Below, in pieces: positions 703-60,626 of a stretch of 64,000 nt of DNA (within the stretch, counting starts at the first letter, position 1; the number at the start of each line of letters is the position of its first letter). Source of the stretch: a virus. Where the stretch lies: the IMG/VR virus record IMGVR_UViG_3300005077_000018, positions 1,686 through 65,685 of that record; one strand, given 5' to 3'. The position numbers and the translations under genes were made by a program. The notes beneath the pieces were generated by a model. It saw only the letters and a program-made list of their open reading frames with translations, was not told the DNA's origin and did not search any database.

Positions 703-824
703 TCAGTCTCAGACGCAAGGGTCTTCAGGCCCGCTTGCCCGCTTGCCCGCGCTGTCTCAGTCGCGCATGGGCAAAAAAATGGGCAACGGGTTGCCCCGTT
801 GCCCCGTTGTCCCGTTGCCCTTGC

Positions 825-1058
825 CTATCGCACTTCCCCTATATAGGCCCCGGTTCTGGCGTAAAATACAACTGTAGCTTGCCAATCTTGCATGGCATCG
901 TAGTATTGTTTGTTATCGTAGTACTCGTTTATGGCAACATCCGGGTCCACTTCTGCGGGTTGCCCCGGTTTTGCGGCGGCCATTTTTAGGTTTTGTATCG
1001 CGGCAATTGCCGCATCCAGCGCATCTTGCAAGTTGTCGTAAGCCTGTTTGTTTTCCAT
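825..1058 (-). CDS. Hypothetical protein (77 aa)
   Basis: AGGAG RBS upstream of ATG on - strand; normal protein composition. Confidence 0.75.
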   Translation of the reverse strand: MENKQAYDNLQDALDAAIAAIQNLKMAAAKPGQPAEVDPDVAINEYYDNKQYYDAMQDWQATVVFYARTGAYIGEVR

Positions 1059-1073
1059 GGTATTGTACTCCTG

Positions 1074-1102
1074 TTTGGTGGTTTGGTGGTTTGGTGGTTT
1101 GG
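1074..1102. repeat. Tandem 8-mer TTTGGTGG x3.6
   Basis: Copies at 1074, 1082, 1090, partial at 1098. Confidence 0.9.
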
Positions 1103-1141
1103 GCAGCCGGGTTGCCCCGGCTGCCCTATAGGTGGTATTGG

Positions 1142-1576
1142 TTATTTAGCGGCGGTCGCTTTTACAAGCGCCCTAAGCGCTTTCGCGGCGGTCGCGGCCA
1201 CATATTTGCGCTTGCCCCAAACTACCACTTCAAAACCTTTTGCGGGTTGTTTTGTGCCTGCATCCCCGCCGCAAAGGGCCACGGCAAAACCACGGCTTTT
1301 TCCAAGCTCTTGTGCCAAATCGCACAACTTGGTAAGGGGCATGTATTTCGGGTCGTCGGCGGGGTTTGCGCTTGCCAATTGGTAGTACTTGCCTACTTTG
1401 CCAAGGTGGGCTAAACAAGTACTCCCAGTATCGTGGTTTGCTGGCTTGCCGCAGTACTGGCAAACACCAGTTTTGCCCGCAAAGCGCGGTTCGCGGCCAA
1501 TAAGCGGGCTTGTTGGCGGGGTTGGTGGGGTTGGTGGGTTGGTGGGGTTGGTGGGGTTGGTTGGTTGGTCGGCCAT
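1142..1576 (-). CDS. Hypothetical protein with PTN/PPT-repeat N-terminus and CxxC...H...C...H motif; paralog of 59021..59536
   Basis: AAGGAG RBS; CQYC and HDTGSTCLAH; shared GGD...F.VV..G.RKY motif. Confidence 0.8.
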   Translation of the reverse strand: MADQPTNPTNPTNPPTPPTPPTSPLIGREPRFAGKTGVCQYCGKPANHDTGSTCLAHLGKVGKYYQLASANPADDPKYMPLTKLCDLAQELGKSRGFAVALCGGDAGTKQPAKGFEVVVWGKRKYVAATAAKALRALVKATAAK

Positions 1577-1638
1577 CGTGTGCTCCTTTTTGGGTTGGTT
1601 GGCGCTTGCCCTATTGCACGCGCGCTTGCCCTAAAAAT

Positions 1639-1649
1639 ATTTTACCACA
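1639..1649 (-). promoter_or_regulatory. Extended -10 promoter driving the island genes
   Basis: Reverse complement TGTGGTAAAAT about 60 nt upstream of ATG 1576. Confidence 0.55.
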
Positions 1650-1790
1650 AACTACGTTTTGTGCTCGTCCACTTTTGCCCTTTTGCCCAAAAAGGGTAAA
1701 ATTTATCGTTTTAAGGGTATGACTGGTTCCAAAAATATCGGACCCGAAACTCGACTCTGAATTTGCCAGCACTATCCTTCAGAACTTCTT

Positions 1791-12458: not shown

Positions 12459-12467
12459 GAGAAATCT

Positions 12468-17451: not shown

Positions 17452-18737
17452 TGACCATTTCAGATTTAGCTACGATCTATGGGTGCTGTGGTCTGTTTGA
17501 CCTATGCAGTGACCAAGATCTGATGCCCCTCTAGTTAGAGGGCCAGTCCAGATTCATGGAATAGATCGGATGGGCGAAAACGAATGTTTGTGTGATCAAG
17601 AAAAACTTCATCACCTACATTCGCGCCGAGGAGAGCAAGGATGTAATGACAACCGGCTATCTCTCCAATCCCTGCGGAGATTCCAATGGAGTCGAGTGGG
17701 GATCCTGCGACTTCACTCTTGAAGATTTTGCTCTTCTTCGCCGACACGGTCCCGAGCGGAATGCTACCAGATCTGCCGTGAAGTATTGCGAAACTCAGCC
17801 GCGCTATCGGCTAGACGGATCTCCGATCACCAGCGATGTCGAATTTGACATGAGACTCGCTACCGAAGGAGTACTTCAGGATCTCAAGAGAATGCTTGTT
17901 GACGGCAACAAGGCTACCGCCGGTCAGTTCGATGGATTGACTCGCCTCGTGAAAACCGGCTATACGAACTCTCGTGGCGTCCACTGTAGATCCATGGATT
18001 CCATCGTTGTCGACTGGAACGCCAATGGTTTGGACGGTGGTAACGGGATTACCTGGAATGGAGTCTCGGTTGCCAGCACCTACTCTATGGTAGATGTTTT
18101 GATCGCCATCATTCGCCGGATCAAGGATCGAATCTCCATGTCTCCGGCTCTGTCGGCTCAGCCTCTTTCAGTTGGCGACATCATCGTTCTCGCTCCGTCT
18201 CACATTCTGAGAGCTCTGCTTGATTCGTTTACCTGCTGGAGTGTTTGCCCTGGTTCCACCAGTATTCAGGTTGCAATTCAGAGCTACGAGGCTCGAAGAT
18301 TCCGGGACAGTCTCATGGGCGGTCTCTTTGGAGACGGAAAGATCTATATCGATGGTTTTGAGATTCCTCTCTGCAAGTATGACTGGGGTCTCCATACTCC
18401 ATCGACCGGATATTCTGACATGTACGTTCTCACCGGAAGAATCGGAAACGTGAAGACTATTTCCGGTCAGTATCTGGATCTTTCCACGGTTCCGACCAAC
18501 TACCCTGAGGCGAATTACTCCTATACCGATGGCGGTCGTCTTCTGACCTGGCTTGAAAGAACCAAGACCTGCGTCTACCGTGAGGTGGAAATGCAACCTC
18601 GGTTGCTGATGTGGGCTCCTTGGGCTCAGGCGAGAATTCAGGACATATCGATCACTCCTCTGGGTGGTGTTATCAGTCCTGATCCTTGGGCTGCTACCTT
18701 CCCCGAGACCAGTTTCTCGGCGGCGGTTTGTCCATAG
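17451..18737 (+). CDS. Major capsid protein; frame interrupted by TAG at 17532-17534 and 17562-17564
   Basis: AAGGAG RBS and ATG 17451 in frame with track ORF 17592..18737; GQFDGL motif; position between scaffold and head-tail genes. Confidence 0.75.
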
Positions 18738-18760
18738 TCATTTCCTGATCCTCCTTGAAA

Positions 18761-18792
18761 GAGGGTGGGAGATCCGAAATTCTCCCACCCTC
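18761..18792 (+). terminator. Perfect 12-bp hairpin after the capsid gene
   Basis: GAGGGTGGGAGA / TCTCCCACCCTC, 8-nt loop; no U tract, so attenuator or stabiliser. Confidence 0.6.
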
Positions 18793-18806
18793 GAAGGAAT
18801 AAAAAA

Positions 18807-38456: not shown

Positions 38457-39304
38457 TAGACAGAGCTCTTTCTCATTCGTCCATGTCTTGCTATAGAAGA
38501 TGTAGAAGACAATACAAATGGAAGTACATAGACAATCTATCTCCTAAGGAAGGTATAGGAAGAGTAAGAGGATCCGCCGGTCATTCAGCGTTAGCAGAAT
38601 GGTATAGAAACGGATGCGACCTGGAAGCTGATGAGATGGCTATGAAAGCTGCGTCCTCCTTACTGAGCGACTTCGAGAATTCCAACAATGTTTCTTTATC
38701 TTCAGAGTGGGAACTTCTGGAGATTATTCTTCCAAGATACTTCGATTGGGCTAGAGCTAACGATTCTTTCGAAGAAATTCTTAGCATAGAACAGGAATTC
38801 GAGATTGATCTGGATGGATATAGAATCGTGGGATTCATAGATGGTGTGGTAAAGGCGACCAACGGAACTGTGTGGCTCTTGGAGCACAAGTTCAACAAGC
38901 AGGTTTCTACCAGTCACATCGATTTGGATCCCCAGATGAGCATGTATCTGTGGGCAGCTCATAAACTTGGAATAGAGGCTAGAGGAGTTCTCTACAACGT
39001 TATCCGGGTTGCTGAAGGTGGAATAGCCGCTACGAAACCCGTGGAAAGAAGAATGGTCTATAGGAGGCCTGATGGTCTAAGATACATAGAAAATGAAATC
39101 AAGCTACAGCTCAAAGAAATGGATTTGTTTCATGCTGGTAAGCTCCCAGCCTACCGAAATCCAACGTCTAATTGTTCTTGGGACTGCTCGTTTTTCAATA
39201 GTTGTCTAGCTATAAATGACGACGGAGACGAAGAGTCGGCAGTCTCAAATATTCCTCTTTCCCAACGTTCGAGGAAAGAAAAGGACATGGACAATGCCCA
39301 ATAA
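38453..39304 (+). CDS. PD-(D/E)XK exonuclease (RecB/Cas4-like) with Cys ligands
   Basis: GFIDG, LLEHKF, QMSMY; Cys at YRRC and CSWDCSFFNSC. Confidence 0.85.
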   Translation: MIDRALSHSSMSCYRRCRRQYKWKYIDNLSPKEGIGRVRGSAGHSALAEWYRNGCDLEADEMAMKAASSLLSDFENSNNVSLSSEWELLEIILPRYFDWARANDSFEEILSIEQEFEIDLDGYRIVGFIDGVVKATNGTVWLLEHKFNKQVSTSHIDLDPQMSMYLWAAHKLGIEARGVLYNVIRVAEGGIAATKPVERRMVYRRPDGLRYIENEIKLQLKEMDLFHAGKLPAYRNPTSNCSWDCSFFNSCLAINDDGDEESAVSNIPLSQRSRKEKDMDNAQ

Positions 39305-40058
39305 TATTCAGCTTACTGACGATGAACTTGTCTCGTTCGAGCAAGAATGGTCTACAATACTCGAGAAAAAAGAAATCGGATTTGATCCGGACGAAGTTAA
39401 ATTCCTGGTCTACGGAGAAAGCGGAGTAGGAAAAACGGTATTCGGATCTACCTGGATCAAACCCGTATTTTTAGATATTGACAAGGGTATGTCCTCTATT
39501 CGAAGACAGGTTCATCGGATTAAGATTAATGCCTGGGAGGATCTTCAGAATTCGTATGACCTTCTTGCCAATCATAGGCATCCGTTCAGAACTGTTGTAG
39601 TAGATTCTCTCAACGAGCTTCAGAAGCTTACGATGAGGAATGTAGTTCAAACGTACACTTCTATAAGAAGGTCATACGACAGTCTGCCATCCCAGTCAGA
39701 TTATGGTAAGATGCTAGACGACTACGACAAAATGATCAGAGCTTTCAGAGCTCTTCCTATGCACGTAGTCTTTATTTCTCAGGTAGCTTCCAGAGAGTAC
39801 GAGACTGATCCGGTTCAGCCTCAACTTACCGGAAAGAATGCCGCTAGAGACCTTTGCCGAATGATGGATGTTGTCGGATATCTCGATAAGCGAGATTCAG
39901 AAGGGAGCGGTCCAAAAACAAGAGTTATGGTATTTGATCAGGTGGGTTACGTCACCAAGGATCGTTCGGGGATGCTTCCAGGGATGCTGGAGAATCCATC
40001 TTATGAGTCCATAGCGAAAATATGGAGTCCTCTTACAAAAGCTAAAAATCAGGAGTAA
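39294..40058 (+). CDS. AAA ATPase / Sak4-like single-strand annealing protein
   Basis: YGESGVGKT, LDIDKG, VVDSLNE, KDRSG. Confidence 0.85.
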   Translation: MPNNIQLTDDELVSFEQEWSTILEKKEIGFDPDEVKFLVYGESGVGKTVFGSTWIKPVFLDIDKGMSSIRRQVHRIKINAWEDLQNSYDLLANHRHPFRTVVVDSLNELQKLTMRNVVQTYTSIRRSYDSLPSQSDYGKMLDDYDKMIRAFRALPMHVVFISQVASREYETDPVQPQLTGKNAARDLCRMMDVVGYLDKRDSEGSGPKTRVMVFDQVGYVTKDRSGMLPGMLENPSYESIAKIWSPLTKAKNQE

Positions 40059-40567: not shown

Positions 40568-40945
40568 ATGACTTCTATCGTGTCCTTTGATCCAGGAATG
40601 TCTACAGGAATATTTTTGTATCTGTCCGGAAATCCAGATTTTGAATACTCTTTGGTGAAGGATCCTTCTGGCTTGAAAAGATTTATTTCAACTTTCGATT
40701 TTGACATAGTTATCTGTGAAAGACTTCCTACTCCAGTAGCATCAGGTTTAGGATTTGTAGTTCAGATTATAAAAGAAAGATTCGACGAAATTTATTTTAT
40801 TTCTCCAGGAGAATGGAAACCCCTGGCAAGAACTTGGAAACATCCTACTTTCAAAACTGAGCATGAGAAGGATGCTTACTTCCTTATGAGATACTGGTCT
40901 ACCTTTAAGAGAAAGGATTTTGTATGCGGAAAAAAGTGGCAATAG
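40568..40945 (+). CDS. RuvC-like Holliday junction resolvase
   Basis: SFDPGMSTG, VICE, HEKDA. Confidence 0.7.
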   Translation: MTSIVSFDPGMSTGIFLYLSGNPDFEYSLVKDPSGLKRFISTFDFDIVICERLPTPVASGLGFVVQIIKERFDEIYFISPGEWKPLARTWKHPTFKTEHEKDAYFLMRYWSTFKRKDFVCGKKWQ

Positions 40946-41715
40946 TCGGAGGAGGTCCGTCATCGTGGTTTGCAAGAATGGCTTGCTTCCACGCTGGAAT
41001 AGTTCCGACAGTTTTTGTAAGATCAGAGGTCAATCCTCCAGGAGCTTTCTGGATTCATGAACTTCCAGATTTTGCTCATCATCTTCCTATGTTCAAAATT
41101 TCAGTTAGAAGTTCGGGATCAAGAGAGATCTATAAGAGGAAACAGTGGGGAAACATAGATCTTCCTGAAAATTATAGATCTTCTTTTCCCGATCTAGAGT
41201 ACGAAACCTACGGAGCTGATCCGTCGACGGTAAGATCATTTGTTGATTCTGAACTCGCTCACGAAAGAATAATTTTAGAAGGAAATCTTAATGATGAGGA
41301 TCTTTCTTCTCTAAAGGATACTTATGACGAGGTTTTCTACACTTTTCCGTCTGAAAGATCAAAGCGAGAAAACTCCGAGTTCTTCCGGTTTATTCCCATA
41401 TTTTCCACCCAAACTCCTGTAGCTGATAGGCATATAAAAGAAATATTTTATGACGGCAGATCTCAATCTTCCGTTGTAAGATTTTCTGAAATATGGGGAA
41501 TGCAATTCAGAGAATATCAGGTGATTCGATATCCCAGTCAAGTGGACAAATTTGCAAAATCTAACTGTGTCTTCATTCCGGACATAATTCCTACAGATAG
41601 GAAACTATCTCCGCTGTCCCCTGAAGGAACAACTCCTATAGGAAGATTGGCATGTATGAACAGAACTATGCTGTCTCATCAGACCTATGAAATAGTGAGG
41701 GAAAAGTTATCATGA
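40924..41715 (+). CDS. FAD/NAD-binding oxidoreductase (UDP-galactopyranose-mutase-like architecture)
   Basis: KVAIVGGGPS Rossmann start; C-terminal IGRLA. Confidence 0.65.
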   Translation: MRKKVAIVGGGPSSWFARMACFHAGIVPTVFVRSEVNPPGAFWIHELPDFAHHLPMFKISVRSSGSREIYKRKQWGNIDLPENYRSSFPDLEYETYGADPSTVRSFVDSELAHERIILEGNLNDEDLSSLKDTYDEVFYTFPSERSKRENSEFFRFIPIFSTQTPVADRHIKEIFYDGRSQSSVVRFSEIWGMQFREYQVIRYPSQVDKFAKSNCVFIPDIIPTDRKLSPLSPEGTTPIGRLACMNRTMLSHQTYEIVREKLS

Positions 41716-42632
41716 ATTCTCCTTTCGATCTTCTTTACAAAAGACAGAGATTCTATAACACAAAATTGCGAGCAGAAAAGGGTGGAGACAGAATGACCTG
41801 GACTAAGACCTATCTCCTCGGTCTGTCGTCGGAAATAGGTGACGTACTGAAAAGTCTCGCATGGAAAGCGCATAGAAAGAAAGAGACAACGGAACCTTCT
41901 AGAGATAATCTTGCGTTCGAGTTCGCCGATCTTCTCAAATACGTCATGTCTCTTTCAGAACTGTGGGGCTTGGATTCCGACGAACTTATTTCTTTTGCGA
42001 ACAGGAAGAGCGCTCTTCTGGAAAGAATTAGCTACGAGGATTCTCGGGAAATTCCGAATGGCTCTACCGTTCTCATGGTAGATTTAGATGGAACAGTAGG
42101 AGATTGGAGATCCTCTTTTAGATCATTTCTTGAGAATCTTGGTCTAGATCTAGGTGAAGATTCAGAGAGGTCTCTTGACATAGAGATGGAACTAAATCTC
42201 TCCTACAGTGAATATATTGATCTAAAGGATAAATTCGAATCTACTGGAGGATACGCTAATCTGTATGCCTATCCTGACGCAGTTGACTTTCTTATAGAAG
42301 CTAAGAGCAGAGGTTTCAAAATAGTAGTCTTTACCGCTAGACCGGTGGATAAGCATAGAAGAATATGGTCGGACACTTTGGACTGGTTATACTCTAACGG
42401 AATTTCGGCTGATCAGGTACGCTTCGGCTCTGAAACCAGAATCGTCTATGCCAAAGAGTTGTCCTGGAACAATAGGGTATTTGTACTAGAGGACAATCCT
42501 CAATTGATGTTGAGAGCGGCGAACGCCGGTCTTACAGTAATAGGACGAAGGCATCAATATAACTCCGGTATAGATCATCCCGGAATACGCATGGTAGATT
42601 CATTTGAAGAGATAAATCTGGAGGATCTATGA
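41712..42632 (+). CDS. MazG-like NTP pyrophosphatase fused to HAD 5'-nucleotidase
   Basis: SEIGDV...EFADLLKY; VDLDGT, VFTARP, VLEDNP. Confidence 0.85.
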   Translation: MNSPFDLLYKRQRFYNTKLRAEKGGDRMTWTKTYLLGLSSEIGDVLKSLAWKAHRKKETTEPSRDNLAFEFADLLKYVMSLSELWGLDSDELISFANRKSALLERISYEDSREIPNGSTVLMVDLDGTVGDWRSSFRSFLENLGLDLGEDSERSLDIEMELNLSYSEYIDLKDKFESTGGYANLYAYPDAVDFLIEAKSRGFKIVVFTARPVDKHRRIWSDTLDWLYSNGISADQVRFGSETRIVYAKELSWNNRVFVLEDNPQLMLRAANAGLTVIGRRHQYNSGIDHPGIRMVDSFEEINLEDL

Positions 42633-42955
42633 GAACTAGGGAGGATATGGAAGCTCATTTTGAGCGTCGCGACAGTCAATTTGAAGACATCTGCACATCT
42701 TCAGCGGCCATCTTCGAGGTAAAGAACAGACAGTACAATGACGCGATATCTAGAACTGGTCTTCTCGGAGCGTGCGTAGAGATTGTAGGAGTAGCCGCTA
42801 GACTGGAACCTCTGATCATACAAAATTCAACTTTTGAGAGTGACTTTGAAACTGATTCCTTCAGATCTTCTGTTCTGAACGCTCTGAACGATCTTCACAA
42901 TTACGCAGTTATCGCCCTGATGATGCTTGAGGATCAAAACTGGAGGGGAGAGTGA
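42629..42955 (+). CDS. Nucleotide-modification-associated domain 1 (Nmad1/DUF1599)-like protein
   Basis: KNRQYND...G..G...RL...DLHNYAVIALMML. Confidence 0.7.
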   Translation: MRTREDMEAHFERRDSQFEDICTSSAAIFEVKNRQYNDAISRTGLLGACVEIVGVAARLEPLIIQNSTFESDFETDSFRSSVLNALNDLHNYAVIALMMLEDQNWRGE

Positions 42956-43764
42956 GAATTCTCGCGGGAATACCTACAAGACTACGAAATACCAGCGGAA
43001 AGATAGCTCAGACCCTGGCTACCGTAGTAGATGATGTCTTCGTAGTGTCTCAGGGAGCTGAAGTATGGGTTGACGAAGGAACGGACCTCTCAAAGATTCA
43101 TGTTCAGGAATATCCCGAAAATTTTGGAGTAATTCCTGCTAGAAATGAAATTCTTAGAGTTGCTTTCCAGGGAGACTACGACATAGTCATTCAGAGTGAT
43201 GATGACATTTCATTCCGTGAAGCTACTATTCGGAGAATGATAGAAATTCTGGATGAATTTCCAACCATAGGAGCTATAACCTCAGAAAGCAGAGCTTATT
43301 TCAACTGGAACAAGGATGTCAGAAGTACCAGACCATTTCTTCTTACTCCGTGCGCCGCTCAACTCTGGGCTGCTAGAGTACCGATCATGAGGGAAATCGG
43401 GTTAATGGAAGTTCCGTATTTAGAGGATAGAGAGCACGGTTGTCGACTCTGGAAGTCCGGATATCCGGTAGTTGAACTTCACGAAACTATAGATCTTGCT
43501 CATAATCCATTCATTTCAAGAACGAATGTCTCCTCGAAAATTGGTGGGCAGAATGAGGAGCACGAAGGAGATATTCACTCCGGTCTGAAAGCTGGAATAG
43601 AAGAAATGAACCTCAGACATGGAGACATAGTAAATCTCAAGTATCTCGGAATACGAGGAAGATCGTTTACTTCCAGATACAATTGGCCCAGAATGATAGA
43701 GTATGTAGATCGTCGATTCGGAAAAATTCTTGGGTATGCGGATTCCAAGGGAAGAGTCTTATGA
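42952..43764 (+). CDS. GT-A fold glycosyltransferase
   Basis: ILAGIPT, GVIPARNEIL, QSDDDI, YLEDRE. Confidence 0.75.
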   Translation: MRILAGIPTRLRNTSGKIAQTLATVVDDVFVVSQGAEVWVDEGTDLSKIHVQEYPENFGVIPARNEILRVAFQGDYDIVIQSDDDISFREATIRRMIEILDEFPTIGAITSESRAYFNWNKDVRSTRPFLLTPCAAQLWAARVPIMREIGLMEVPYLEDREHGCRLWKSGYPVVELHETIDLAHNPFISRTNVSSKIGGQNEEHEGDIHSGLKAGIEEMNLRHGDIVNLKYLGIRGRSFTSRYNWPRMIEYVDRRFGKILGYADSKGRVL

Positions 43765-44543
43765 GGATATTTTCTGCTATAAAAACTCTCGGAAGGAAGA
43801 CTGCTGGCAAGGTAGCTGATAATCTATCGAGGCTGTCAGAATGCGTAACAGTCGTGTCATTTGGAGCTACCGTAGAAACCAAATCTTCCAATACGAAAAT
43901 AATAGAGGTATTCGGAACTGATAAAGCTGAGGCTGAGAATATACTCATACAAGAATTTCTTGCCTCAGACTGTGACATCTATCTTTCTTGCGACGACGAC
44001 ATCATTGTTCCTGAGGTCTCCGCTCTTGCTTCTGCTAAGATCGTTTCAGAAATTCAATCCGCGGGAATAGTGTCCATTCCCGATCGAAAAACTTTCTTCT
44101 ATCAGTCTAAAGTAACCTGTAACAGAGGATTCAAACTTACGACCAATATATCGAAGATATGGATTGCTAGAAGAGAGGTTGTGAAAGAAGTTGGTTGGTT
44201 TAGGTTTCCCTTTGCAGAAGACAGAGATTTCATGGTACGAGCATATAGGGCTGGATTCGCTGTAGTTTCTCTGTCAGAATCTGTAGAGCAGTCCTGCAGA
44301 TCTCTATCCTCAAAAGAAGATCTTTCTGATTTCTCCAATTTTATACGAACCAAGGAAAAGCAGAAGAAAGCCATGATAAGTTTCTTCAGAGCTAACAAAC
44401 CTCTGGTAAGTTTGGAACCTGAGAATCCCTCAGAGAAAAATCCGTTCATAGTGAAGTATGATTGGAATCAACTCCTACTGATAGTTGTCAAAAGATTCGG
44501 AGTATCGGTAGGATATGAAGACTCTCTTGGAAGGAGATTTTGA
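43761..44543 (+). CDS. GT-A fold glycosyltransferase, paralog of the preceding gene
   Basis: SCDDDI, FAEDRD; similar C-terminus (GVSVGYEDSLGRRF vs GKILGYADSKGRVL). Confidence 0.7.
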   Translation: MRIFSAIKTLGRKTAGKVADNLSRLSECVTVVSFGATVETKSSNTKIIEVFGTDKAEAENILIQEFLASDCDIYLSCDDDIIVPEVSALASAKIVSEIQSAGIVSIPDRKTFFYQSKVTCNRGFKLTTNISKIWIARREVVKEVGWFRFPFAEDRDFMVRAYRAGFAVVSLSESVEQSCRSLSSKEDLSDFSNFIRTKEKQKKAMISFFRANKPLVSLEPENPSEKNPFIVKYDWNQLLLIVVKRFGVSVGYEDSLGRRF

Positions 44544-44544
44544 A

Positions 44545-45285
44545 ATGCCAGTTGTAAGAACAGCTTATGACGACCGTCACGATACAACGATTGAGTTCGT
44601 CACTTTGCCGATCTCTACCGTTGAGTTTGTTGACGGAATTACCGATCCGTTTCAGACAGTAGCCAAGATGTCTCGAGGCTACGGGGGGATCTACTCAAAT
44701 GATCCCTGTACAGAAGATGAAATTGCTCAAGCAATCAAGGATATGAATTCCACCAAACTTGGAACTCCTCTAGAAACGGTAGAGGTCATATTTTTGATCC
44801 ACGATGTGTCCAGAGCATTTACCCATCAACAGGTCAGAACTAGAATTGGTGCTTCATTCGTTCAGGAGTCCATGAGATTTCTGGGACATCAGGGTAAGTA
44901 TCGCATAATGGTCTCCGGGGAAATCTTCCGTAATTCAGAAGCCTTTGAAGCCTACCAGCAAGCGTGCTTCACGTCCATCTGGACGTACGAGGAAATGCTC
45001 AAAATCGGAATTCCAGGAGAGGATGCACGAGACATTCTTCCTCACGGAATATGTACTCGTTTGTTCGTTGGATACGCCATGAGTACTCTTCGTACCGTGT
45101 ATGCTCAGAGAATGTGTTGTCAGGCTCAGCCTGGTCAATGGCAACATATTCTTCGTCAGATGAAGAGGATTCTCATAGAGAAATACGGAGAACGAATGAC
45201 CGACATGCTTTCAGCTCCGTATGAGCGAGGAGAACCTTGCGGTTATCGGGCCAGCTTCGATCGTCCGTGTACATGGCAAAAATGA
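44545..45285 (+). CDS. thyX: Flavin-dependent thymidylate synthase-like protein with RTR variant motif
   Basis: TPLE, VSRAFTHQQVRTRIGASFVQESMRF, EDARDILP. Confidence 0.85.
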   Translation: MPVVRTAYDDRHDTTIEFVTLPISTVEFVDGITDPFQTVAKMSRGYGGIYSNDPCTEDEIAQAIKDMNSTKLGTPLETVEVIFLIHDVSRAFTHQQVRTRIGASFVQESMRFLGHQGKYRIMVSGEIFRNSEAFEAYQQACFTSIWTYEEMLKIGIPGEDARDILPHGICTRLFVGYAMSTLRTVYAQRMCCQAQPGQWQHILRQMKRILIEKYGERMTDMLSAPYERGEPCGYRASFDRPCTWQK

Positions 45286-45914
45286 AAACTCCAATCTGCG
45301 ATCTTGCTGAAAAATATGGAAGTGACAAGGCTCCCTGGGGTCACAACTATACTCCGGTATACTGGGATCTCATGTGCGAAAAGCAGTACGAAGAGGTGAA
45401 TATTCTGGAGATAGGAGTTTTGACAGGAGCTTCCATCAGAATGTGGCTAGAGTTCTTCCCTCGTTCCACCGTATTCGCTCTAGATGTAGACGAGGTAGCT
45501 CTAGAGAGGCTTCGAGGAACCAGTCACAGAATTATTCCTATGTTAGGATCTCAGACCGACTTCCTAGTATGGAATTCCTTTCCTAGGGTTTCTTACGATT
45601 TCATAATAGACGACGGAAGTCATATTCCCAATGACCAGATGAGGACATTCGAGGAAAATTTTCATCGCGTAAAATCCGGAGGATTCTGGATCATAGAAGA
45701 TACTCATTGTATGTTTCATGACAAATTCAATCCAACCAAAAGCTTCGAGTTATATACCTGGTTTTCGCAGCTTATACTTCTTCAGCAAATGCGAGGAGCC
45801 GAGGGCGGAAATTTTGATCGAGCTCTGAATTCTGGAATACTAATCGGAAGTCTTACCAGAATGATTAGATCCATACGAAGCTACAAATCTCTGATGATTT
45901 TCGAGAGGGCTTAA
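45282..45914 (+). CDS. SAM-dependent O-methyltransferase (MycE/TylE-like)
   Basis: KYGSDK...HNY, ILEIGV, FIIDDGSH, GGFWIIEDT. Confidence 0.85.
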   Translation: MKTPICDLAEKYGSDKAPWGHNYTPVYWDLMCEKQYEEVNILEIGVLTGASIRMWLEFFPRSTVFALDVDEVALERLRGTSHRIIPMLGSQTDFLVWNSFPRVSYDFIIDDGSHIPNDQMRTFEENFHRVKSGGFWIIEDTHCMFHDKFNPTKSFELYTWFSQLILLQQMRGAEGGNFDRALNSGILIGSLTRMIRSIRSYKSLMIFERA

Positions 45915-46609
45915 TGAACAAGGTAATCTCGTATACTACTAGCTCCTATTATCAAAATATGGAGGATATGCTTCATGAATGTTGCGAGAGATTCGATCTT
46001 CAACACGAGAGATATGATCAAGAATGGTTTCATTCCACCGAATACTATTCGAAACACAAAGACGTCGCTGATCAAAGAAGAATGGCAGGTTTCGCAATTT
46101 GGAAACCATTCATCATTCTGGACGCTTTGAGGAAGGTCGAAGAAAACGATGTAATCTGCTATCTTGACGCTAGCGTGGTATTCGAAGAAGACCCCAGACC
46201 ATTCTTCGACACAGTAAAATTCATAGCGGTAGGTAACGCAGACGACTGGGTGAATCGAGACTGGATAAAGAGAGACGCGTTTATCCTGATGAATGCCGAT
46301 AGCTCGGAATTTTGGAATGCAAGACAGATTTGGGCGGGTCAAATTGTTGTTAGGAAGAATAACGCTTCGATGACCCTCATGGAAGAATTCTTGACGTGGT
46401 GTGAAGATAGAAGAATAATAACTGACGAAGATAACGTCTGCGGTCTTCCGAATTTCTCGGGATTTAGAGAAAATAGATCCGAGCAAGCTATTCTCGCCAT
46501 AATGGCGGTCATCTATCCTGAATTCATTTCTCACGATCCTACCGTATTCCACGATTATGCTGGAAACTGGTCAGAGTGGATTCCTTGGTCCAAGAAGGGA
46601 AGAAGATGA
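45914..46609 (+). CDS. Nucleotide-diphospho-sugar transferase-like protein
   Basis: IWKPFIILDAL, CYLDAS, EQAILAI. Confidence 0.6.
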   Translation: MNKVISYTTSSYYQNMEDMLHECCERFDLQHERYDQEWFHSTEYYSKHKDVADQRRMAGFAIWKPFIILDALRKVEENDVICYLDASVVFEEDPRPFFDTVKFIAVGNADDWVNRDWIKRDAFILMNADSSEFWNARQIWAGQIVVRKNNASMTLMEEFLTWCEDRRIITDEDNVCGLPNFSGFRENRSEQAILAIMAVIYPEFISHDPTVFHDYAGNWSEWIPWSKKGRR

Positions 46610-46842
46610 TAGTTCTGACTTGTATCGACTGCAGAGGATTAGTGGAATCCAGAGGAGGATTCCCTTACTGCGAAAGATGCGGTAAGTTCTTGTATATGTA
46701 TCAGATTAGATTTACCGTGGTTCCTACGCCAGAAAACTGGACAGAAAAAGAGGAGTTTTTAGATGTCAGAACAACCCCAGAAGGATTACATAACGACATT
46801 CGATCAACTGGAGAGATGCAAGGGTCATCCGATATCTCTTGA
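46606..46842 (+). CDS. Small Zn-ribbon protein
   Basis: CIDC...CERC; overlaps the polA start. Confidence 0.5.
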   Translation: MIVLTCIDCRGLVESRGGFPYCERCGKFLYMYQIRFTVVPTPENWTEKEEFLDVRTTPEGLHNDIRSTGEMQGSSDIS

Positions 46843-48727
46843 CACAGAAACCACAGGTCTGAATCCCTGGATGGACGATCTGATCGGAGTTTCGTTTTAT
46901 TGCGAATCTCTGGGTTTAGGCGGATATATTCCCACTTTGGATTCGGAAAGCAGAGTTACGGCAAAGAGGATCTGCAGTGAATTTCCAGACAAGAACGTGA
47001 TTGTTTTTCACAATGCGAAATTTGACCTTCACTTTCTTCGAATGGACCCCAATCTTCATGACTGGACTATAATGGATACTACAGTCATGCTTCATCTTCT
47101 AGACAGTAGACAACCCAAGGCATTAGTTCTTGCGGAGAAACGTTGGCTTGGAACTGAAAGCAAGAGAGACAAAGTTGAAGCCGCTCCTGCTAGAACAAAA
47201 ATATGGAATTGGCCGATAAGGATAATTTCGGCCTACGCCGCCAATGACGCAAAAGTCACATGGCAACTTGCTCAAAAACTCTGGCCCTATCTCAAGGAAA
47301 TGGGTCTTACCGATCTTTTCTGGAAAGATATGGAATACGTGAAAACTTTGTATTCTATAGAAGATTACGGAGTTCTAATTGACGAGGAGTTCATTGAGGA
47401 ATCTGCCGAAAAGCTACAGGGTCATCTAAGAAATATGGAACGTGAGCTCATGGATAGTTGCGGAGCTCAGTTCAATTGGAGAAGTCCTCAGCAGCTCAGC
47501 AGGGCAATCTATGATGGTCTCGGAATTCCTAAACCGAAGAATCCTTTCGCTGACGCCGATGGAGTTGATCGAAGTCGTTTTGCTGACGCAGGTAAGTACA
47601 AATCAACTTGCACAGCTACCTTCATTCTTACAGAAAAGATCCATCATCCTCTAGGAGAGCTTATTTCCTCGATGAGAGAAGCCGATAAACTTCGGAAAGC
47701 CTTCTTGAAGTGGTTGGAATTGAAGGACGAAAATAACATTCTTCACACAAACTTCAATCAAACTGGAACCAGAACTGGCAGATTATCCTCGTCAAGACCC
47801 AATCTTCAAAACATAGCCTCTCAAACCAGAGGAAGATTCACTCAGAGCGTCTATACCGGATCTGTGGATCGATCCGACGAATTCAACATGAGAAGAGCAG
47901 TAATTCCAAGACCTGGAAACTGCTTCATATCGGTAGACTATAAGCAGATGGAAATGAGAATGTTCGGAATTCTTAGCAAAGATCCATTCATGCTCAATGC
48001 TCTGATTGCCGGAAAGGATGTTCATCTGGAGATTGCTCTGAAAGTATGGGGAGATTGCGGTGAACACATGAACAAAGTTCATCGCGAGTGGTCCAAAACA
48101 ATAACATTCGGTCTTATCTACGGAATGACTCTCGGCTCTCTTCAGTATAAACTTAATATGACTAGAATTGAAGCCGCCAAAGTGACCGATCAATATTGGG
48201 GTCAATTCCCAAGAATCAAACCCTGGATGGACGAAATAGTTGAATCATGCAAACTTGACGGGTTCCTGAGATACTGGAGTGGAAGAATCTGGAAAGAGGA
48301 AAATCCCATTGACATGTACAAGGGATGCAACGCTCTTATTCAGGGAGGATGTGCTGATCTTCTTTCAATAGCCGCCATGAGAGTGCATGAATGGATGAGA
48401 AAGCAACCAAATCACAGATTGATCAATCTGGTTCATGACGAAACAATTAGCGAAGTTCCTGTCGACGACATTCTTCGATCGGCAAAATTCGTTTCGGAAA
48501 CTATGCAAGTACCTGATCTATTCGGAATTCCCTTCGCTACAGATGTGAAAATAGGACATTCCTACGGAGACATGGTAAAAGTTTCCAAAGATGTTTTGAA
48601 TGATCCTTCAAGAACTTCTCTGTCAATGGAGGAAGTATTCCAGGAAACTCCGGTTGCCGTAGCTGAGATTCCTGACGCGATAGATTTTGATGACTCGGAT
48701 GAAGACGAAGATTCTGAAGAGTCTTAA
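46763..48727 (+). CDS. polA: Family A DNA polymerase with 3'-5' exonuclease
   Basis: LDTETTG, HNAKFD, TGRLSSSRPNLQNI, VDYKQME, KTITFGLIYG, VHDE. Confidence 0.97.
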   Translation: MSEQPQKDYITTFDQLERCKGHPISLDTETTGLNPWMDDLIGVSFYCESLGLGGYIPTLDSESRVTAKRICSEFPDKNVIVFHNAKFDLHFLRMDPNLHDWTIMDTTVMLHLLDSRQPKALVLAEKRWLGTESKRDKVEAAPARTKIWNWPIRIISAYAANDAKVTWQLAQKLWPYLKEMGLTDLFWKDMEYVKTLYSIEDYGVLIDEEFIEESAEKLQGHLRNMERELMDSCGAQFNWRSPQQLSRAIYDGLGIPKPKNPFADADGVDRSRFADAGKYKSTCTATFILTEKIHHPLGELISSMREADKLRKAFLKWLELKDENNILHTNFNQTGTRTGRLSSSRPNLQNIASQTRGRFTQSVYTGSVDRSDEFNMRRAVIPRPGNCFISVDYKQMEMRMFGILSKDPFMLNALIAGKDVHLEIALKVWGDCGEHMNKVHREWSKTITFGLIYGMTLGSLQYKLNMTRIEAAKVTDQYWGQFPRIKPWMDEIVESCKLDGFLRYWSGRIWKEENPIDMYKGCNALIQGGCADLLSIAAMRVHEWMRKQPNHRLINLVHDETISEVPVDDILRSAKFVSETMQVPDLFGIPFATDVKIGHSYGDMVKVSKDVLNDPSRTSLSMEEVFQETPVAVAEIPDAIDFDDSDEDEDSEES

Positions 48728-58620: not shown

Positions 58621-58959
58621 TTACCCTACCCCAAAATTTTCCGCTTTTAGGTCGTTCAATTTGATTCCCGACCAGATAGCCAGGAATAACTGAGCTCTGT
58701 TACGAAGCATAAGAGCGAGGCGATGTTTGCAGATGAATCTCATACGATAGCCCTGATCAGGACACTCGCAGATCTCGACGGTCGTCTTGTATTTCGTGAG
58801 GGGATCGGAGGATAGAGCCAACGCGAATGCTTTATTCAGACGACCAATCTCAACACCTTCTAGAGCTGGATCGTCTATACTATTCAGCATGAGCTTATAC
58901 GCTTCTCGTATATCTCTTTGTCTTTTTTCAGTCGCTCTTGCCGTCATGTTCTCTCCCAT
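58621..58959 (-). CDS. SWIM zinc-finger protein
   Basis: CECPD...CKHRLA. Confidence 0.8.
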   Translation of the reverse strand: MGENMTARATEKRQRDIREAYKLMLNSIDDPALEGVEIGRLNKAFALALSSDPLTKYKTTVEICECPDQGYRMRFICKHRLALMLRNRAQLFLAIWSGIKLNDLKAENFGVG

Positions 58960-58966
58960 CTAGTAG

Positions 58967-58998
58967 AATAGGGCTGGGACCGAAGTCCCAACCCTATT
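58967..58998 (-). terminator. Hairpin with C(UUCG)G tetraloop on the - strand
   Basis: Reverse complement AATAGGGTTGGGAC TTCG GTCCCAGCCCTATT. Confidence 0.7.
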
Positions 58999-59020
58999 TC
59001 TCCAGGAACTTTCCTGAATC

Positions 59021-59536
59021 TTACTTTTTCTCCGTCCAGACCTGTGCTGAGGCCTCGGTAGGAGCGCTCACCTTGAGCTTCTTGGGAGCCGCCGGAGTAG
59101 CCGGAGCAGTTGCCGAGCCATCTCCCTCGGATTTTTCTTTCTTCGTGCGACCACGCCGAGCCGGTTTGTGATATTCCGGGTCCTTGAGCAGTTCGAAACC
59201 GCGGGTCAAAATCTCCGGGGAACCGTACTTGCGACCGCCCACGTAAACAACCTTGAAAACTTCGTCCCAAGGCTCCGAGGCGCACCGGTCTCCACCCATG
59301 GCCGCGCAAATCCGGGAACGACCGATGTCATTTTCGACAGCCTTCTTGACGATCTGCGCCATGTTAAGCCATCCAACCGGAACCTGCTGAACGGTCATTT
59401 CGGCGATTTTCGCGGTCCAGGCCTCTGCGGTCCATTTCTTGCCCAAGCGGGGTTCTGCCGGAGGTTTGGGTTCCTTGACCTGTTTGACCTTCTTGGTCTT
59501 CTCTACTGGTTCGACTGAAACGGTCTGTTCTGACAT
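59021..59536 (-). CDS. Lys/Pro-tailed protein, paralog of 1142..1576
   Basis: AAGGAG RBS, own promoter, shared core motif. Confidence 0.85.
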   Translation of the reverse strand: MSEQTVSVEPVEKTKKVKQVKEPKPPAEPRLGKKWTAEAWTAKIAEMTVQQVPVGWLNMAQIVKKAVENDIGRSRICAAMGGDRCASEPWDEVFKVVYVGGRKYGSPEILTRGFELLKDPEYHKPARRGRTKKEKSEGDGSATAPATPAAPKKLKVSAPTEASAQVWTEKK

Positions 59537-59593
59537 TTGAAACTCCTTTACATGAAAACCGACTGGATTTTAGGGGTTCTTGCCCACAACCTT

Positions 59594-59622
59594 ATTATAC
59601 CTCGACTGACGCTATATTGCAA
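59594..59622 (-). promoter_or_regulatory. Sigma70-type promoter
   Basis: Reverse complement TTGCAA-17-TATAAT. Confidence 0.8.
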
Positions 59623-59660
59623 GTACCAATTTAGACGTGAATGCCTAAATGATACTGCCG

Positions 59661-59897
59661 TCATTTCCTATTTGCCCTCTCTTTCTCCGCTCTAATCGCG
59701 AGATTTCTGAACAGGGCCTTCCTAAAAATGCTTACTCCATAAGAATATCCTAAATCCGACAAAACACTCTCCATGATATTCCTAGCAAGAATTTCCATCA
59801 GATCGGGATCTTTCTCATAGAGCTTTTTGATCTCAGGATCCTTGGGATCCACTATACCTAGCATGACATCGGCAAATTCAGCCGGAGTTTGAGTCAT
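59661..59897 (-). CDS. Hypothetical protein
   Basis: GAGGAGG RBS. Confidence 0.65.
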   Translation of the reverse strand: MTQTPAEFADVMLGIVDPKDPEIKKLYEKDPDLMEILARNIMESVLSDLGYSYGVSIFRKALFRNLAIRAEKERANRK

Positions 59898-60427
59898 AGT
59901 AATTTCTTCCTCCTCAACTCCTTGATCTCTTCCTTTTCATGATTGGTCAAGAGCTCTTCTGTGTTGAAAGTCTTGACCGTTGAAACCAAATCCTGAGCGG
60001 TCATGTTGAAACGGTAGGAAGATCCACAAATGAAACAAGAAGGATTATTGCGGGTTCTGTAAACTACGAGACATTCCTCGCATTTCCAGAAATTCATGGC
60101 TATAAGAACTCCGTCCTCCGCTAGATCCTGGAATGACGTCAAGTATTCTCCCGTGAAAAGATTCTTCCGCTTCATCTCTTCTAAATCTATCCAGATCATG
60201 TGACGAAGATCGTCTTCAGTGTAGTGTTTAGAGCGAAGAAAGACAACAGCCGCGTCTCTTGAGCCAAAGAATTTTTCTTTATTGAAAGAATCCTTCCTTG
60301 AATTTTCCATGAGAAATTCTATCGGTTCTTCCTCCGAATCTGAAAGAAGAGAGCCTGACAACCTAGCTACGAATCCACCTTCCATTATTTCCTCCATATT
60401 ATGGATACGCAATAGATCGGATTCCAC
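59894..60427 (-). CDS. Hypothetical protein with Zn ribbon
   Basis: CEEC...CFIC; start may be about 14 codons downstream. Confidence 0.6.
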   Translation of the reverse strand: MESDLLRIHNMEEIMEGGFVARLSGSLLSDSEEEPIEFLMENSRKDSFNKEKFFGSRDAAVVFLRSKHYTEDDLRHMIWIDLEEMKRKNLFTGEYLTSFQDLAEDGVLIAMNFWKCEECLVVYRTRNNPSCFICGSSYRFNMTAQDLVSTVKTFNTEELLTNHEKEEIKELRRKKLL

Positions 60428-60520
60428 CAGACTATGTATCGGTTACTGACGAAAAAGATAATTCCGACGATTGAGCCGTTTGTGACAGCCCAATCGACGG
60501 AAATCTTGAATCCGGGGATT

Positions 60521-60625
60521 CTAGTCCAGAATGAAAGCATAGAGCGGTAGACATCCGAACAGAAATGCGATCGCAAGAGCAACTCCGATTATGACCGTTA
60601 GAGGATCAATCTTCTTGTGAGCCAT
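60521..60625 (-). CDS. 34-aa membrane peptide
   Basis: AAAGGA RBS; MAHKKIDPLTVIIGVALAIAFLFGCLPLYAFILD. Confidence 0.55.
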   Translation of the reverse strand: MAHKKIDPLTVIIGVALAIAFLFGCLPLYAFILD

Positions 60626-60626
60626 A

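What the first reader, a model, noticed from the sequence alone, without database searches (positions are those of the whole stretch)
40924..46609. Candidate DNA hypermodification operon immediately upstream of polA
Seen: overlap-coupled flavin oxidoreductase (UGM-like), MazG+HAD nucleotidase, Nmad1-like protein, two paralogous GT-A enzymes, variant ThyX, sugar-type O-methyltransferase and a third transferase-like gene, then PolA. Established: MazG/Nmad/TS-like/GT neighbourhoods typify phages that make glycosylated pyrimidines. Inference: ThyX-like enzyme supplies a modified dNMP, MazG/HAD clear the canonical nucleotide, and GTs plus MTase add an O-methylated (possibly furanose) di- or trisaccharide in a sequence context. 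A pyrimidine target in 5'-TC-3' would match the TC-free strand of the island.
Basis: partly seen in the sequence, partly recalled or inferred. Interest (0 to 1): 0.85.

Follow-up and report, generated by a model that had tools for sequence, protein, structure and literature searches.

The report
Candidate phage DNA glycosylation gene cassette
An uncultured 70-kb phage carries, packed between its recombination genes and its DNA polymerase, a set of nucleotide-handling and sugar-handling enzymes that most likely decorate its DNA bases with methylated sugars; this rests on gene content and gene neighbours only, with no chemical evidence.

Summary
They form one overlap-coupled + strand block (40924-46609) inside the replication module of a 70,023-bp phage contig. 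It holds a 263-aa flavoprotein whose nearest fold is UDP-galactopyranose mutase (UGM), a MazG-like/HAD fusion, a small DUF1599/Nmad1-like protein, two paralogous GT-A glycosyltransferases, a ThyX-like enzyme, a MycE/TylE-type sugar O-methyltransferase and a third GT-A-like protein, followed by PolA.

About 20 uncultured relatives keep a core of flavoprotein, MazG/HAD, Nmad1-like protein and ThyX-like enzyme at the same place. The genes beside it vary: GT-A in roughly half, otherwise radical-SAM/SPASM, four methyltransferase families, MptE-like proteins or a sulfotransferase. A fixed core with variable decorating enzymes fits a nucleobase hypermodification cassette (my odds about 0.5).

The case is weakened in several ways. 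The "variant" ThyX features (RTR, three of the four conserved cysteines) also occur in cultured phages. A dUTPase-ThyX-Nmad1 triad has been read elsewhere as plain thymidylate supply. No dNMP kinase was found. The glycosyltransferase fold does not reveal the acceptor. The phage also has a second glycosyltransferase set beside a mucin-like protein.

The 1-kb GA-free island is real and recurs in relatives, but its link to a TC-specific modification is conjecture.

The parts
40924..41715 (+). 263-aa FAD-type flavoprotein, a reduced UGM-like fold ('mini-UGM'). It is a core gene of the cassette.
41712..42632 (+). Fusion of a MazG-like all-alpha NTP pyrophosphatase domain (about residues 1-110) and a HAD phosphatase domain (about residues 115-306). 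Core gene.
   Evidence: dUTPase_2 E 0.0033; phrog_173 NTP-PPase 5e-4; phrog_420 1e-12; phrog_415 5e-10. The N-domain profile hits MazG-like 2q73 (0.0046), DCTPP1 and dimeric dUTPases, all weakly. DLDGT HAD motif. PF06941 NT5C (weak) on the L004 orthologue.
42629..42955 (+). 108-aa helical protein, DUF1599/Nmad1-like. Core gene.
   Evidence: phrog_1485 1e-7. Atlas features 0.94 and structure TM 0.73 to PF07659 clusters. No Pfam HMM match. hhalign to the MazG domain gave probability 0.5%.
42952..43764 (+). GT1, a GT-A glycosyltransferase. This is the copy conserved in about half of the relatives.
43761..44543 (+). GT2, a paralogue of GT1 found only in this genome.
   Evidence: 28% identity to GT1; same DDD/ED motifs and C-terminal GY.DS.GR motif. 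phrog_2456 glycosyltransferase 8e-5. The only such copy in the 5.8-billion-protein search (P0302).
44545..45285 (+). ThyX-like flavoenzyme. Core gene.
   Evidence: Pfam Thy1 3.8e-25. NCBIfam thyX equivalog 65.4 bits, below the 87.9 cut-off. Against T. maritima ThyX it keeps Q75, R78, R80, S88, R90, E144, R147 and R174. It changes H53 to L, H79 to T/Y and Y91 to F, and has four clade-invariant Cys.
45282..45914 (+). SAM-dependent methyltransferase of the deoxysugar O-methyltransferase type.
   Evidence: Methyltransf_24 5.8e-6; phrog_21658 3.9e-21. Nearest solved structures are MycE 3ssm (9.4e-14) and TylE 8ia9 (6.2e-13).
45914..46609 (+). 231-aa GT-A-like nucleotide-diphospho-sugar transferase (third transferase).
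   Evidence: No Pfam, PHROG or PDB sequence hit. Atlas structure TM 0.86-0.91 to GT2- and GT34-domain clusters. 'YLDAS' DxD-like motif. Orthologues in L003 (same position) and L001 (after the primase).
46763..48727 (+). Family A DNA polymerase with 3'-5' exonuclease. It is the downstream neighbour and would incorporate any altered nucleotide.
   Evidence: DNA_pol_A 5.5e-74; DNA_pol_A_exo1 6.7e-12.
712..1721 (.). GA-free (+ strand) / TC-free (- strand) island upstream of the terminase genes. A link to the cassette is possible but unproven.
   Evidence: 0 GA in 1009 nt, although GA is the commonest dinucleotide. Comparable islands in relatives G004 and G003. It holds - strand ORFs with a CxxCGK zinc-ribbon-like motif.

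Best explanation
The block is a DNA-base hypermodification cassette built into the replication operon. Only gene identities and synteny are shown; every enzymatic step below is inferred.

(1) The MazG-like domain hydrolyses a canonical pyrimidine dNTP to the dNMP, and the fused HAD phosphatase removes the competing monophosphate.

(2) The ThyX-like flavoenzyme keeps the residues that hold and activate dUMP. It adds a one-carbon unit at C5 of a uracil nucleotide and releases a functionalised product, most plausibly 5-hydroxymethyl-dUMP. Host kinases and the phage PolA put this product into DNA.

(3) After replication, GT1 glycosylates the base hydroxyl. In this phage GT2 and the 231-aa GT-A-like protein extend the glycan. 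The donor may include a furanose UDP-sugar made by the reduced UGM-like flavoprotein.

(4) The MycE/TylE-like methyltransferase O-methylates a sugar.

The result would be a base-J-like O-glycosylated pyrimidine that shields the DNA from nucleases.
For: - Eight genes are translationally coupled between RuvC/SSB and PolA. No convincing intrinsic terminator lies within the block.
- In about 20 relatives the flavoprotein, MazG/HAD, Nmad1-like and ThyX-like core sits at the same place. The adjoining slot holds different decorating enzymes: GT1 family in 9 loci, 8 distinct (before or after ThyX); radical-SAM/SPASM plus a 333-aa protein in L009; Methyltransf_11/21/24; MptE-like; sulfotransferase.
- The GT1 family is confined to this lineage and always nested beside ThyX.
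- The MTase's closest solved relatives methylate deoxysugars.
- The flavoprotein keeps UGM's uridine- and diphosphate-binding motifs.
- Published precedents: ThyA-type pre-replicative pyrimidine synthesis followed by DNA glycosyltransferases, with a phage UGM in RL38JI (PMC13326640); GT-A DNA glycosyltransferases with R..DDD..ED motifs (bioRxiv 10.1101/2023.12.21.572611).
- ThyX-like scores below NCBI's equivalog cut-off and lacks H53 and H79.
- A conserved dinucleotide-free island shows that something in this lineage acts on the GA/TC dinucleotide.
Against: - No chemical or sequencing-signal evidence exists, and no public run could be listed.
- No Walker-A dNMP kinase, 5-hmdU DNA kinase or dCMP deaminase was found.
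- The RTR motif and a Cys triad occur in ThyX-like proteins of cultured Pbunavirus, Carpasinavirus, Gordonia and Mycobacterium phages. I know of no report that Pbunavirus DNA is hypermodified; this is my own knowledge and was not checked.
- dUTPase-ThyX-Nmad1 triads have been read as thymidylate supply (bioRxiv 10.1101/2021.07.29.453957).
- GT1 is missing from about half of the relatives, while the UGM-like gene is kept.
- GT1's structural neighbours include mucin-type protein O-GalNAc transferases, and none is a DNA glycosyltransferase.
- GT1 orthologues are near-neutral or acidic, so they show no DNA-binding charge signature.
- The phage has five more GT2-family genes and two further methyltransferase candidates (one confirmed by Pfam) around a Ser/Pro-rich 1213-aa protein, so protein glycosylation is clearly within its repertoire.
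Confidence: 0.5

Rival explanations
1. Ordinary nucleotide supply plus unrelated glycosylation. The MazG-like domain acts as a dUTPase/dCTPase feeding dUMP to a true, if divergent, ThyX that makes dTMP. The Nmad1-like protein and the flavoprotein are accessory factors of that reaction, for example in flavin reduction. GT1, GT2, orf231 and the MTase glycosylate virion proteins such as the mucin-like 1213-aa protein, and sit in the early/middle operon only for timing.
For: - The dUMP-binding residues of ThyX are all kept.
- The same ThyX-like subtype occurs in cultured phages.
- XcP1 has a flavoprotein-like gene (hhalign E 2e-4), a ThyX-like gene and a HAD-motif gene side by side, with no glycosyltransferase annotated in that stretch.
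- The triad is interpreted as dTMP synthesis in bioRxiv 10.1101/2021.07.29.453957.
- GT1's top structural matches include ppGalNAc-transferases.
- The genome has a large virion-side GT/MTase set.
- No dNMP kinase was found.
Against: - A HAD nucleotidase fused to the pyrophosphatase would waste the dUMP that ThyX needs.
- The decorating genes are nested between Nmad1 and ThyX or directly after ThyX, not beside structural genes.
- The slot's contents change between relatives (GT, radical SAM, sulfotransferase, several MTases), which is unusual for a housekeeping dTMP operon.
- The phage already has a separate GT set in the head module.
Confidence: 0.3
2. The cassette makes a modified free nucleotide or nucleoside-sugar metabolite that is not incorporated into DNA. 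It would resemble peptidyl-nucleoside antibiotic pathways that use a ThyX-like UMP C5-methylase. The product would serve host takeover or inhibit a defence.
For: - ThyX-like, UGM-like, GT and sugar-MTase enzymes are all small-molecule enzyme types.
- The flavoprotein keeps a uridine-nucleotide-binding motif.
- GT1's best Swiss-Prot structural match is a small-molecule glycosyltransferase (pre-mycofactocin GT).
- No DNA-binding signature was found in the glycosyltransferases.
Against: - The cassette sits between recombination genes and PolA in every relative.
- No export, kinase or ligase genes are typical of such pathways here.
- I know of no phage precedent (own knowledge).
Confidence: 0.1
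3. The glycosyltransferases alter a host surface glycan (seroconversion or superinfection exclusion), using a furanose donor made by the UGM-like enzyme.
For: GT-A enzymes resembling GlfT2, heparosan synthase and O-antigen transferases, together with a UGM-like enzyme, are classic cell-wall glycan tools.
Against: - The genes lie in the replication module of an apparently lytic phage.
- The set is tied to ThyX/MazG genes in all relatives.
- No membrane-associated partner such as a flippase or Gtr-type protein was seen nearby.
Confidence: 0.05

Closest known systems
Glycosyl-5-hydroxycytosine and glucosyl-5-hydroxymethylcytosine systems of T4, RB69, DLP3 and Rhizobium phage RL38JI (PMC13326640)
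   Same: A pyrimidine dNTP pyrophosphatase, a thymidylate-synthase-type enzyme acting on the mononucleotide, several DNA glycosyltransferases and sugar-donor enzymes lie clustered near replication genes. RL38JI also encodes a UGM.
5mYOX/TET-associated GT-A DNA glycosyltransferases and kinetoplastid base J (JGT) (bioRxiv 10.1101/2023.12.21.572611)
   Same: GT-A fold with R...DDD...ED active-site motifs. The products are O-glycosylated 5-hydroxymethylpyrimidines. That paper's database mining also found GT-A genes beside thymidylate synthase genes.
   Different: No dioxygenase or C5-methyltransferase is present here. GT1 has ED-R rather than ED-Y/F.
dUTPase-ThyX-Nmad1 (DUF1599) gene triad of Asgard wyrdviruses (bioRxiv 10.1101/2021.07.29.453957)
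   Same: An NTP pyrophosphatase, a ThyX and an Nmad1-like protein are encoded together in a virus.
   Different: There the triad stands alone and is read as thymidylate supply. Here the pyrophosphatase is fused to a HAD phosphatase, and the triad is joined by a UGM-like flavoprotein and variable GT, MTase and radical-SAM genes.
Thymidine hypermodification clusters (5-hmdU DNA kinase, aGPT-Pplase, PLP, radical SAM and FAD enzymes; PMC8989533)
   Same: A conserved base-forming step plus combinatorially variable decorating enzymes in viral metagenomes. A radical-SAM enzyme occupies the slot of relative L009.
   Different: No P-loop 5-HMUDK or aGPT-Pplase is present. The one-carbon enzyme is ThyX-type, not a ThyA-type dUMP hydroxymethylase. 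The decorations here are sugars rather than amino acids.
UDP-galactopyranose mutase (Glf)
   Same: FAD Rossmann domain plus beta-sheet domain. Conserved YxxKQWG, TR, EY and GR motifs align to UGM's UDP-binding residues.
   Different: 263 aa against 367-390 aa. There is no Pfam GLF match, and the gene is kept in relatives where no glycosyltransferase was seen nearby.

Membership tests
ThyX (FAD-dependent thymidylate synthase) | Thy1 domain above Pfam's gathering score | tested here: met
   PF02511, 89.2 bits against a cut-off of 24.8.
ThyX (FAD-dependent thymidylate synthase) | Score above NCBI's equivalog cut-off (same function as characterised ThyX) | tested here: not met
   TIGR02170, 65.4 bits against a cut-off of 87.9.
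ThyX (FAD-dependent thymidylate synthase) | RHR-X7-8-S signature and the folate/NADPH-stacking His (T. maritima H53) | tested here: not met
   The clade has R-T/Y-R and an invariant Leu at the H53 position; S88 and R90 are kept. The same deviations occur in ThyX-like proteins of cultured phages.
ThyX (FAD-dependent thymidylate synthase) | dUMP-binding and activating residues (Q75, R78, R80, R90, R147, R174) | tested here: met
   All are aligned and invariant in the 26-sequence clade alignment.
ThyX (FAD-dependent thymidylate synthase) | Reductive methylation of dUMP to dTMP | not testable with these tools
   Needs an enzyme assay.
UDP-galactopyranose mutase | UGM fold as the best structural match | tested here: met
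UDP-galactopyranose mutase | Full three-domain architecture and a Pfam GLF (PF03275) match | tested here: not met
   263 aa against 367-390 aa; no Pfam or NCBIfam hit at E 0.01.
UDP-galactopyranose mutase | Uridine- and diphosphate-binding residues (K. pneumoniae Y155, W160, R280, Y314) | tested here: inconclusive
   A weak profile alignment (E 0.0055) places family-conserved Y70, W75, R186 and E197-Y on these positions. The role of the UGM residues is taken from my own knowledge of the literature.
MazG / all-alpha NTP pyrophosphatase | Family profile match and paired acidic metal-binding motifs | tested here: inconclusive
   Only sub-threshold hits: dUTPase_2 at 18.1 bits against 22.9; 2q73 E 0.0046; DCTPP1 E 0.24. 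E-x-x-D/E and D-x-x-x-Y motifs are conserved in orthologues.
HAD phosphatase (NT5C-like) | DxDGT nucleophile motif and a family profile match | tested here: met
   'VDLDGTVGDW'; phrog_420 1e-12 and phrog_415 5e-10; PF06941 (weak) on an orthologue. Substrate unknown.
Nmad1 / DUF1599 | PF07659 profile match | tested here: not met
   No match even at E 10.
Nmad1 / DUF1599 | Same fold and language-model neighbourhood as PF07659 clusters | tested here: met
   77 of the 100 nearest clusters carry PF07659 (score 0.94); structure TM 0.70-0.73.
GT-A glycosyltransferase (GT2-like) | GT-A fold with a DxD motif | tested here: met
Phage DNA glycosyltransferases | Homology to an enzyme shown to act on DNA, or DNA as demonstrated acceptor | tested here: inconclusive
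   No DNA glycosyltransferase appears among the PDB or Swiss-Prot structural matches. Sequences of the GT-A DNA transferases in the preprint were not available to compare.
Thymidine hypermodification (5-HMUDK / aGPT-Pplase type) | P-loop 5-hmdU DNA kinase | tested here: not met
   The only GxxxxGK[ST] motifs lie in the terminase, Sak4, the primase-helicase and two frames not read as genes here.
7-deazaguanine (DpdA) systems with a GA motif | DpdA/TGT and QueC genes | tested here: not met
   PF01702 and PF06508 are absent from the 95%-complete genome; the control genomes were positive.
Deoxysugar O-methyltransferases (MycE/TylE, Methyltransf_24) | Family match and nearest characterised relatives | tested here: met
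   PF13578, 27.6 bits against a cut-off of 26.3. MycE 9.4e-14 and TylE 6.2e-13 are the only significant PDB hits.

The most novel reading that the evidence does not exclude
A large uncultured phage lineage uses a flavin-dependent, ThyX-type enzyme, working with a miniaturised UGM-like flavoprotein, to make a non-canonical pyrimidine nucleotide. This would be the first pre-replicative DNA hypermodification route not based on a ThyA homologue. Lineage-specific enzymes then decorate the base; in this phage the result would be an O-methylated, possibly furanose-containing oligosaccharide. The modification, or a process that reads it, would be specific for the TC/GA dinucleotide, which would explain the conserved 1-kb dinucleotide-free island.
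Probability: 0.2. Interest if true: 0.85.

Novelty: new variant of a known kind. Interest (0 to 1): 0.6.

Why it matters
If the reading holds, it adds a second enzymatic origin (ThyX-type) for modified pyrimidines in viral DNA. It also adds a new reduced flavoenzyme family (750 clusters at 50% identity, no annotation) and a lineage-specific DNA glycosyltransferase family. These would be new reagents for DNA labelling and new cases for the study of defence evasion. The lineage is abundant in metagenomes, so its DNA may be under-sampled or mis-called by standard sequencing. Even under the rival reading, two results need explaining: a short flavoprotein tightly linked to a ThyX-like subtype whose relatives occur in Pbunavirus and Carpasinavirus, and a conserved dinucleotide-free island. 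Both can be tested in culturable phages.

Tried and rejected
- Megablast of the block against 50,697 phage records found no match. The best PolA relatives are below 30% identity, so there is no cultured close relative.
- The word-indexed protein search with the flavoprotein found only itself. tblastn against phages found nothing. The exhaustive HMM search was needed.
- orf108 as a degenerate MazG paralogue: BLASTP found nothing and hhalign gave probability 0.5%. Rejected as shown homology.
- The HAD domain against PDB sequences gave nothing significant.
- GT1 acceptor from structure: Foldseek against PDB, VIA and AFDB Swiss-Prot all give generic GT-A neighbours tied within 1-2 Z units. Not informative.
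- GT1 family search for independent genomic contexts returned 33 proteins, all from this lineage.
- Charge and pI of the glycosyltransferases are mixed and not informative.
- Palindrome statistics show only mild, ordinary under-representation, with GATC over-represented. This is compatible with protection by modification but is not evidence for it.
- Searches for dCMP deaminase, DpdA/TGT, QueC and a Walker-A dNMP kinase found none.
- Public sequencing runs holding the block: none was listed, so no read-level test was possible.
- The flavoprotein/ThyX-like complex prediction gave no verdict (score 0.00). It is evidence neither for nor against binding.
- The promoter/terminator scan found no more than chance inside the block.
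- Local hmmsearch with the flavoprotein and MazG/HAD profiles against XcP1 and Pbunavirus proteins found nothing. hhalign gave a weak flavoprotein match in XcP1 only.

Full report
**Context.** The window is 64 kb of a single 70,023-bp IMG/VR virus record that CheckV rates 95% complete. It has no near relative among 50,697 deposited phage genomes: megablast finds nothing, and the best PolA matches are below 30% identity. The finding lies in a long + strand replication module. In order, the module holds an SNF2 helicase, a PD-(D/E)XK exonuclease, a Sak4 annealase, an SSB-like protein, a 125-aa RuvC-like protein, the eight genes in question, PolA and an AEP primase-helicase.

**Observation.** Three start codons were moved, to 43761, 44545 and 45282, to match the orthologues and the database gene call.

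The identities hold, with different strength:
- **UGM motifs.** A profile of 52 family members finds K. pneumoniae UGM as its best PDB sequence hit. The hit is weak (E 0.0055), but it lines up the family's conserved YxxKQWG, R186, E197-Y and GR motifs with UGM's GYTIKQWG, YTR, KEY and GRLGTY segments. From my knowledge of UGM structures, these segments bind the uridine and the diphosphate.
- **Size.** The protein is about 110 residues shorter than any UGM.
- **MazG/HAD fusion.** It is supported by several weak but concordant hits and by clear motifs.
- **orf108.** It is DUF1599/Nmad1-like by language-model features and predicted structure only. The Pfam model does not match.
- **GT1 and GT2.** They are paralogous GT-A enzymes.
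- **orf231.** It is GT-A-like in the Atlas model.
- **Methyltransferase.** Its only significant solved relatives are the macrolide deoxysugar O-methyltransferases MycE and TylE.

**Comparative genomics.** This is the main new evidence. ThyX-like homologues (199 found, 40-63% identity among the 120 listed) and flavoprotein homologues (750 clusters at 50% identity) come almost entirely from unnamed metagenomic and viral contigs.

In every contig long enough to judge, about 20 in all, the order RuvC, flavoprotein, MazG/HAD, Nmad1-like, ThyX-like, PolA, primase is kept. What varies is the slot around ThyX:
- A GT1-family gene lies before or after ThyX in nine loci (eight distinct; L016 and L022 carry the same copy).
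- A radical-SAM/SPASM enzyme plus a 333-aa protein occupy the slot in L009.
- Methyltransferases of the Methyltransf_11/25, _21 (FkbM) and _24 (TylF-like) types, MptE-like proteins and a sulfotransferase occur in others.
- The GT1 family itself is confined to this lineage, and GT2 is unique to this genome.

A fixed nucleotide-metabolism core flanked by combinatorially changing transferases is how known phage DNA-hypermodification clusters look (PMC8989533; bioRxiv 10.1101/2023.12.21.572611; PMC13326640). It is not what one expects of a housekeeping thymidylate operon.

**The ThyX-like enzyme.** Aligned to T. maritima ThyX, the clade keeps the residues that bind and polarise dUMP: Q75, R78, R80, S88, R90, E144, R147 and R174. 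It replaces H53 (Leu), H79 (Thr/Tyr) and Y91 (Phe). It also carries four invariant cysteines, two next to R174 and two in a C-terminal extension. It falls below NCBI's thyX equivalog cut-off.

However, ThyX-like proteins of cultured Pbunavirus, Carpasinavirus, Gordonia and Mycobacterium phages share the RTR motif and three of the cysteines. These features therefore define a broad phage subtype, not a cassette-specific innovation. Retention of R174 and R90 argues for a uracil nucleotide as substrate; this is inference.

**Weaknesses.**
- No dNMP kinase, 5-hmdU DNA kinase or dCMP deaminase is encoded.
- The UGM-like gene persists in relatives where I saw no glycosyltransferase nearby. Its role may therefore be tied to ThyX/MazG rather than to sugar supply. 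A direct test of flavoprotein-ThyX binding gave no verdict.
- The Xanthomonas phage XcP1 has a GxGxxG protein (hhalign E 2e-4 to the family), a ThyX-like gene and a HAD-motif gene in a row, with no glycosyltransferase annotated in that stretch.
- A dUTPase-ThyX-Nmad1 triad in Asgard viruses was interpreted as plain thymidylate synthesis (bioRxiv 10.1101/2021.07.29.453957).
- GT1's structural neighbours are generic: heparosan synthase, mucin-type GalNAc-transferases, GlfT2 and the pre-mycofactocin glycosyltransferase. They do not identify the acceptor.
- The head module holds five more GT2-family genes and two further methyltransferase candidates (one confirmed by Pfam) around a Ser/Pro-rich 1213-aa protein. 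The phage can therefore plausibly glycosylate proteins.

**The TC/GA island.** GA is the commonest dinucleotide in the genome (6389 copies), yet window 712-1721 has none on the + strand; the next longest GA-free gap is 142 nt.

The island lies upstream of the terminase genes. It carries - strand ORFs, one with a Pro/Thr-rich linker and a CxxCGK...C.AH motif. Relatives show the same feature in the equivalent place:
- G004 has a 1014-nt GA-free run and TC-free runs of 595 and 231 nt.
- G003 has about 1.2 kb with 1-4 GA per 200 nt instead of about 12.
- Both islands also hold a CxxCGK-motif ORF of this kind.

Both relatives lack a GT1 gene in the stretches examined. If the island reflects the cassette, it therefore reflects the core or another process, not GT1.

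In G000 and, more loosely, G003 the TC-free or TC-poor strand is the sense strand of that gene; in G004 both strands lack the dinucleotide. This fits avoidance of a TC-specific DNA modification. It fits avoidance of a TC-specific deaminase or nuclease, or of a UC-specific RNase, just as well. The known GA-specific dPreQ0 system (PMC10484667) is excluded, because DpdA and QueC are absent.

**Verdict.** I put the interpretation as a DNA hypermodification operon at about 0.5, and ordinary thymidylate supply plus non-DNA glycosylation at about 0.3. If the main reading is true, this is a new variant of a known kind: a ThyX-type base-forming enzyme, a reduced UGM-like flavoprotein and a lineage-specific GT-A. 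The chemistry (which base, which sugar, which context) cannot be decided by computation.

Noticed in passing
window 712-1721; relatives G004:C1:2446-3478 (L043) and G003:C1:~38800-40000 (L034): The 1-kb GA-free (TC-free on the other strand) island is a lineage trait upstream of the terminase genes. In each genome it encodes a small protein with a Pro/Thr-rich linker and a CxxCGK...C.AH zinc-ribbon-like motif. In G000 and, less strictly, G003 the TC-free or TC-poor strand is that gene's sense strand; in G004 both GA and TC are absent. The cause is unknown.
   Followed up: partly
window 18765-20132 (+): A GT2-family glycosyltransferase in the head module has a weak C-terminal helix-hairpin-helix (HHH_5) match (E 5e-4, below the cut-off). 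A DNA-binding motif on a glycosyltransferase would make it another candidate DNA glycosyltransferase.
   Followed up: no
window 5760-20132 (+): Pfam confirms four further GT2-family genes besides the one at 18765 (5760, 7215, 12983 with an added Glyco_trans_1_2 domain) and a Methyltransf_24 gene (6607), around the Ser/Pro-rich 1213-aa ORF. This is a second, separate glycosylation toolkit.
   Followed up: partly
L026 (Xanthomonas phage XcP1, MH191395) 2019-4862; L049 (Pseudomonas phage GoodVibes) 8081-10210: Cultured phages carry the same ThyX-like subtype (RTR, Cys triad) next to a HAD-motif protein annotated as 3'-phosphatase/polynucleotide kinase. In XcP1 it also lies next to a 311-aa GxGxxG protein weakly related to the flavoprotein family. 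These phages are a culturable test bed for the core.
   Followed up: partly
L009 2811-4810; L004 16231-18973: Relatives fill the slot beside ThyX, or after the primase, with a radical-SAM/SPASM enzyme plus a 333-aa unknown protein, or with an FkbM methyltransferase, a sulfotransferase, a 227-aa protein and an MptE-like protein. This suggests chemically different decorations in sister phages.
   Followed up: partly
window 46576-46842 (+) and 46763: An 88-aa ORF with two CxxC pairs overlaps the annotated PolA start by 80 nt. Either the ORF is spurious or PolA starts further downstream.
   Followed up: no
window 58621-62144 (-): A diverging - strand block encodes a SWIM zinc-finger protein and a 505-aa HATPase_c_3 (GHKL ATPase) protein. 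Function unknown.
   Followed up: no
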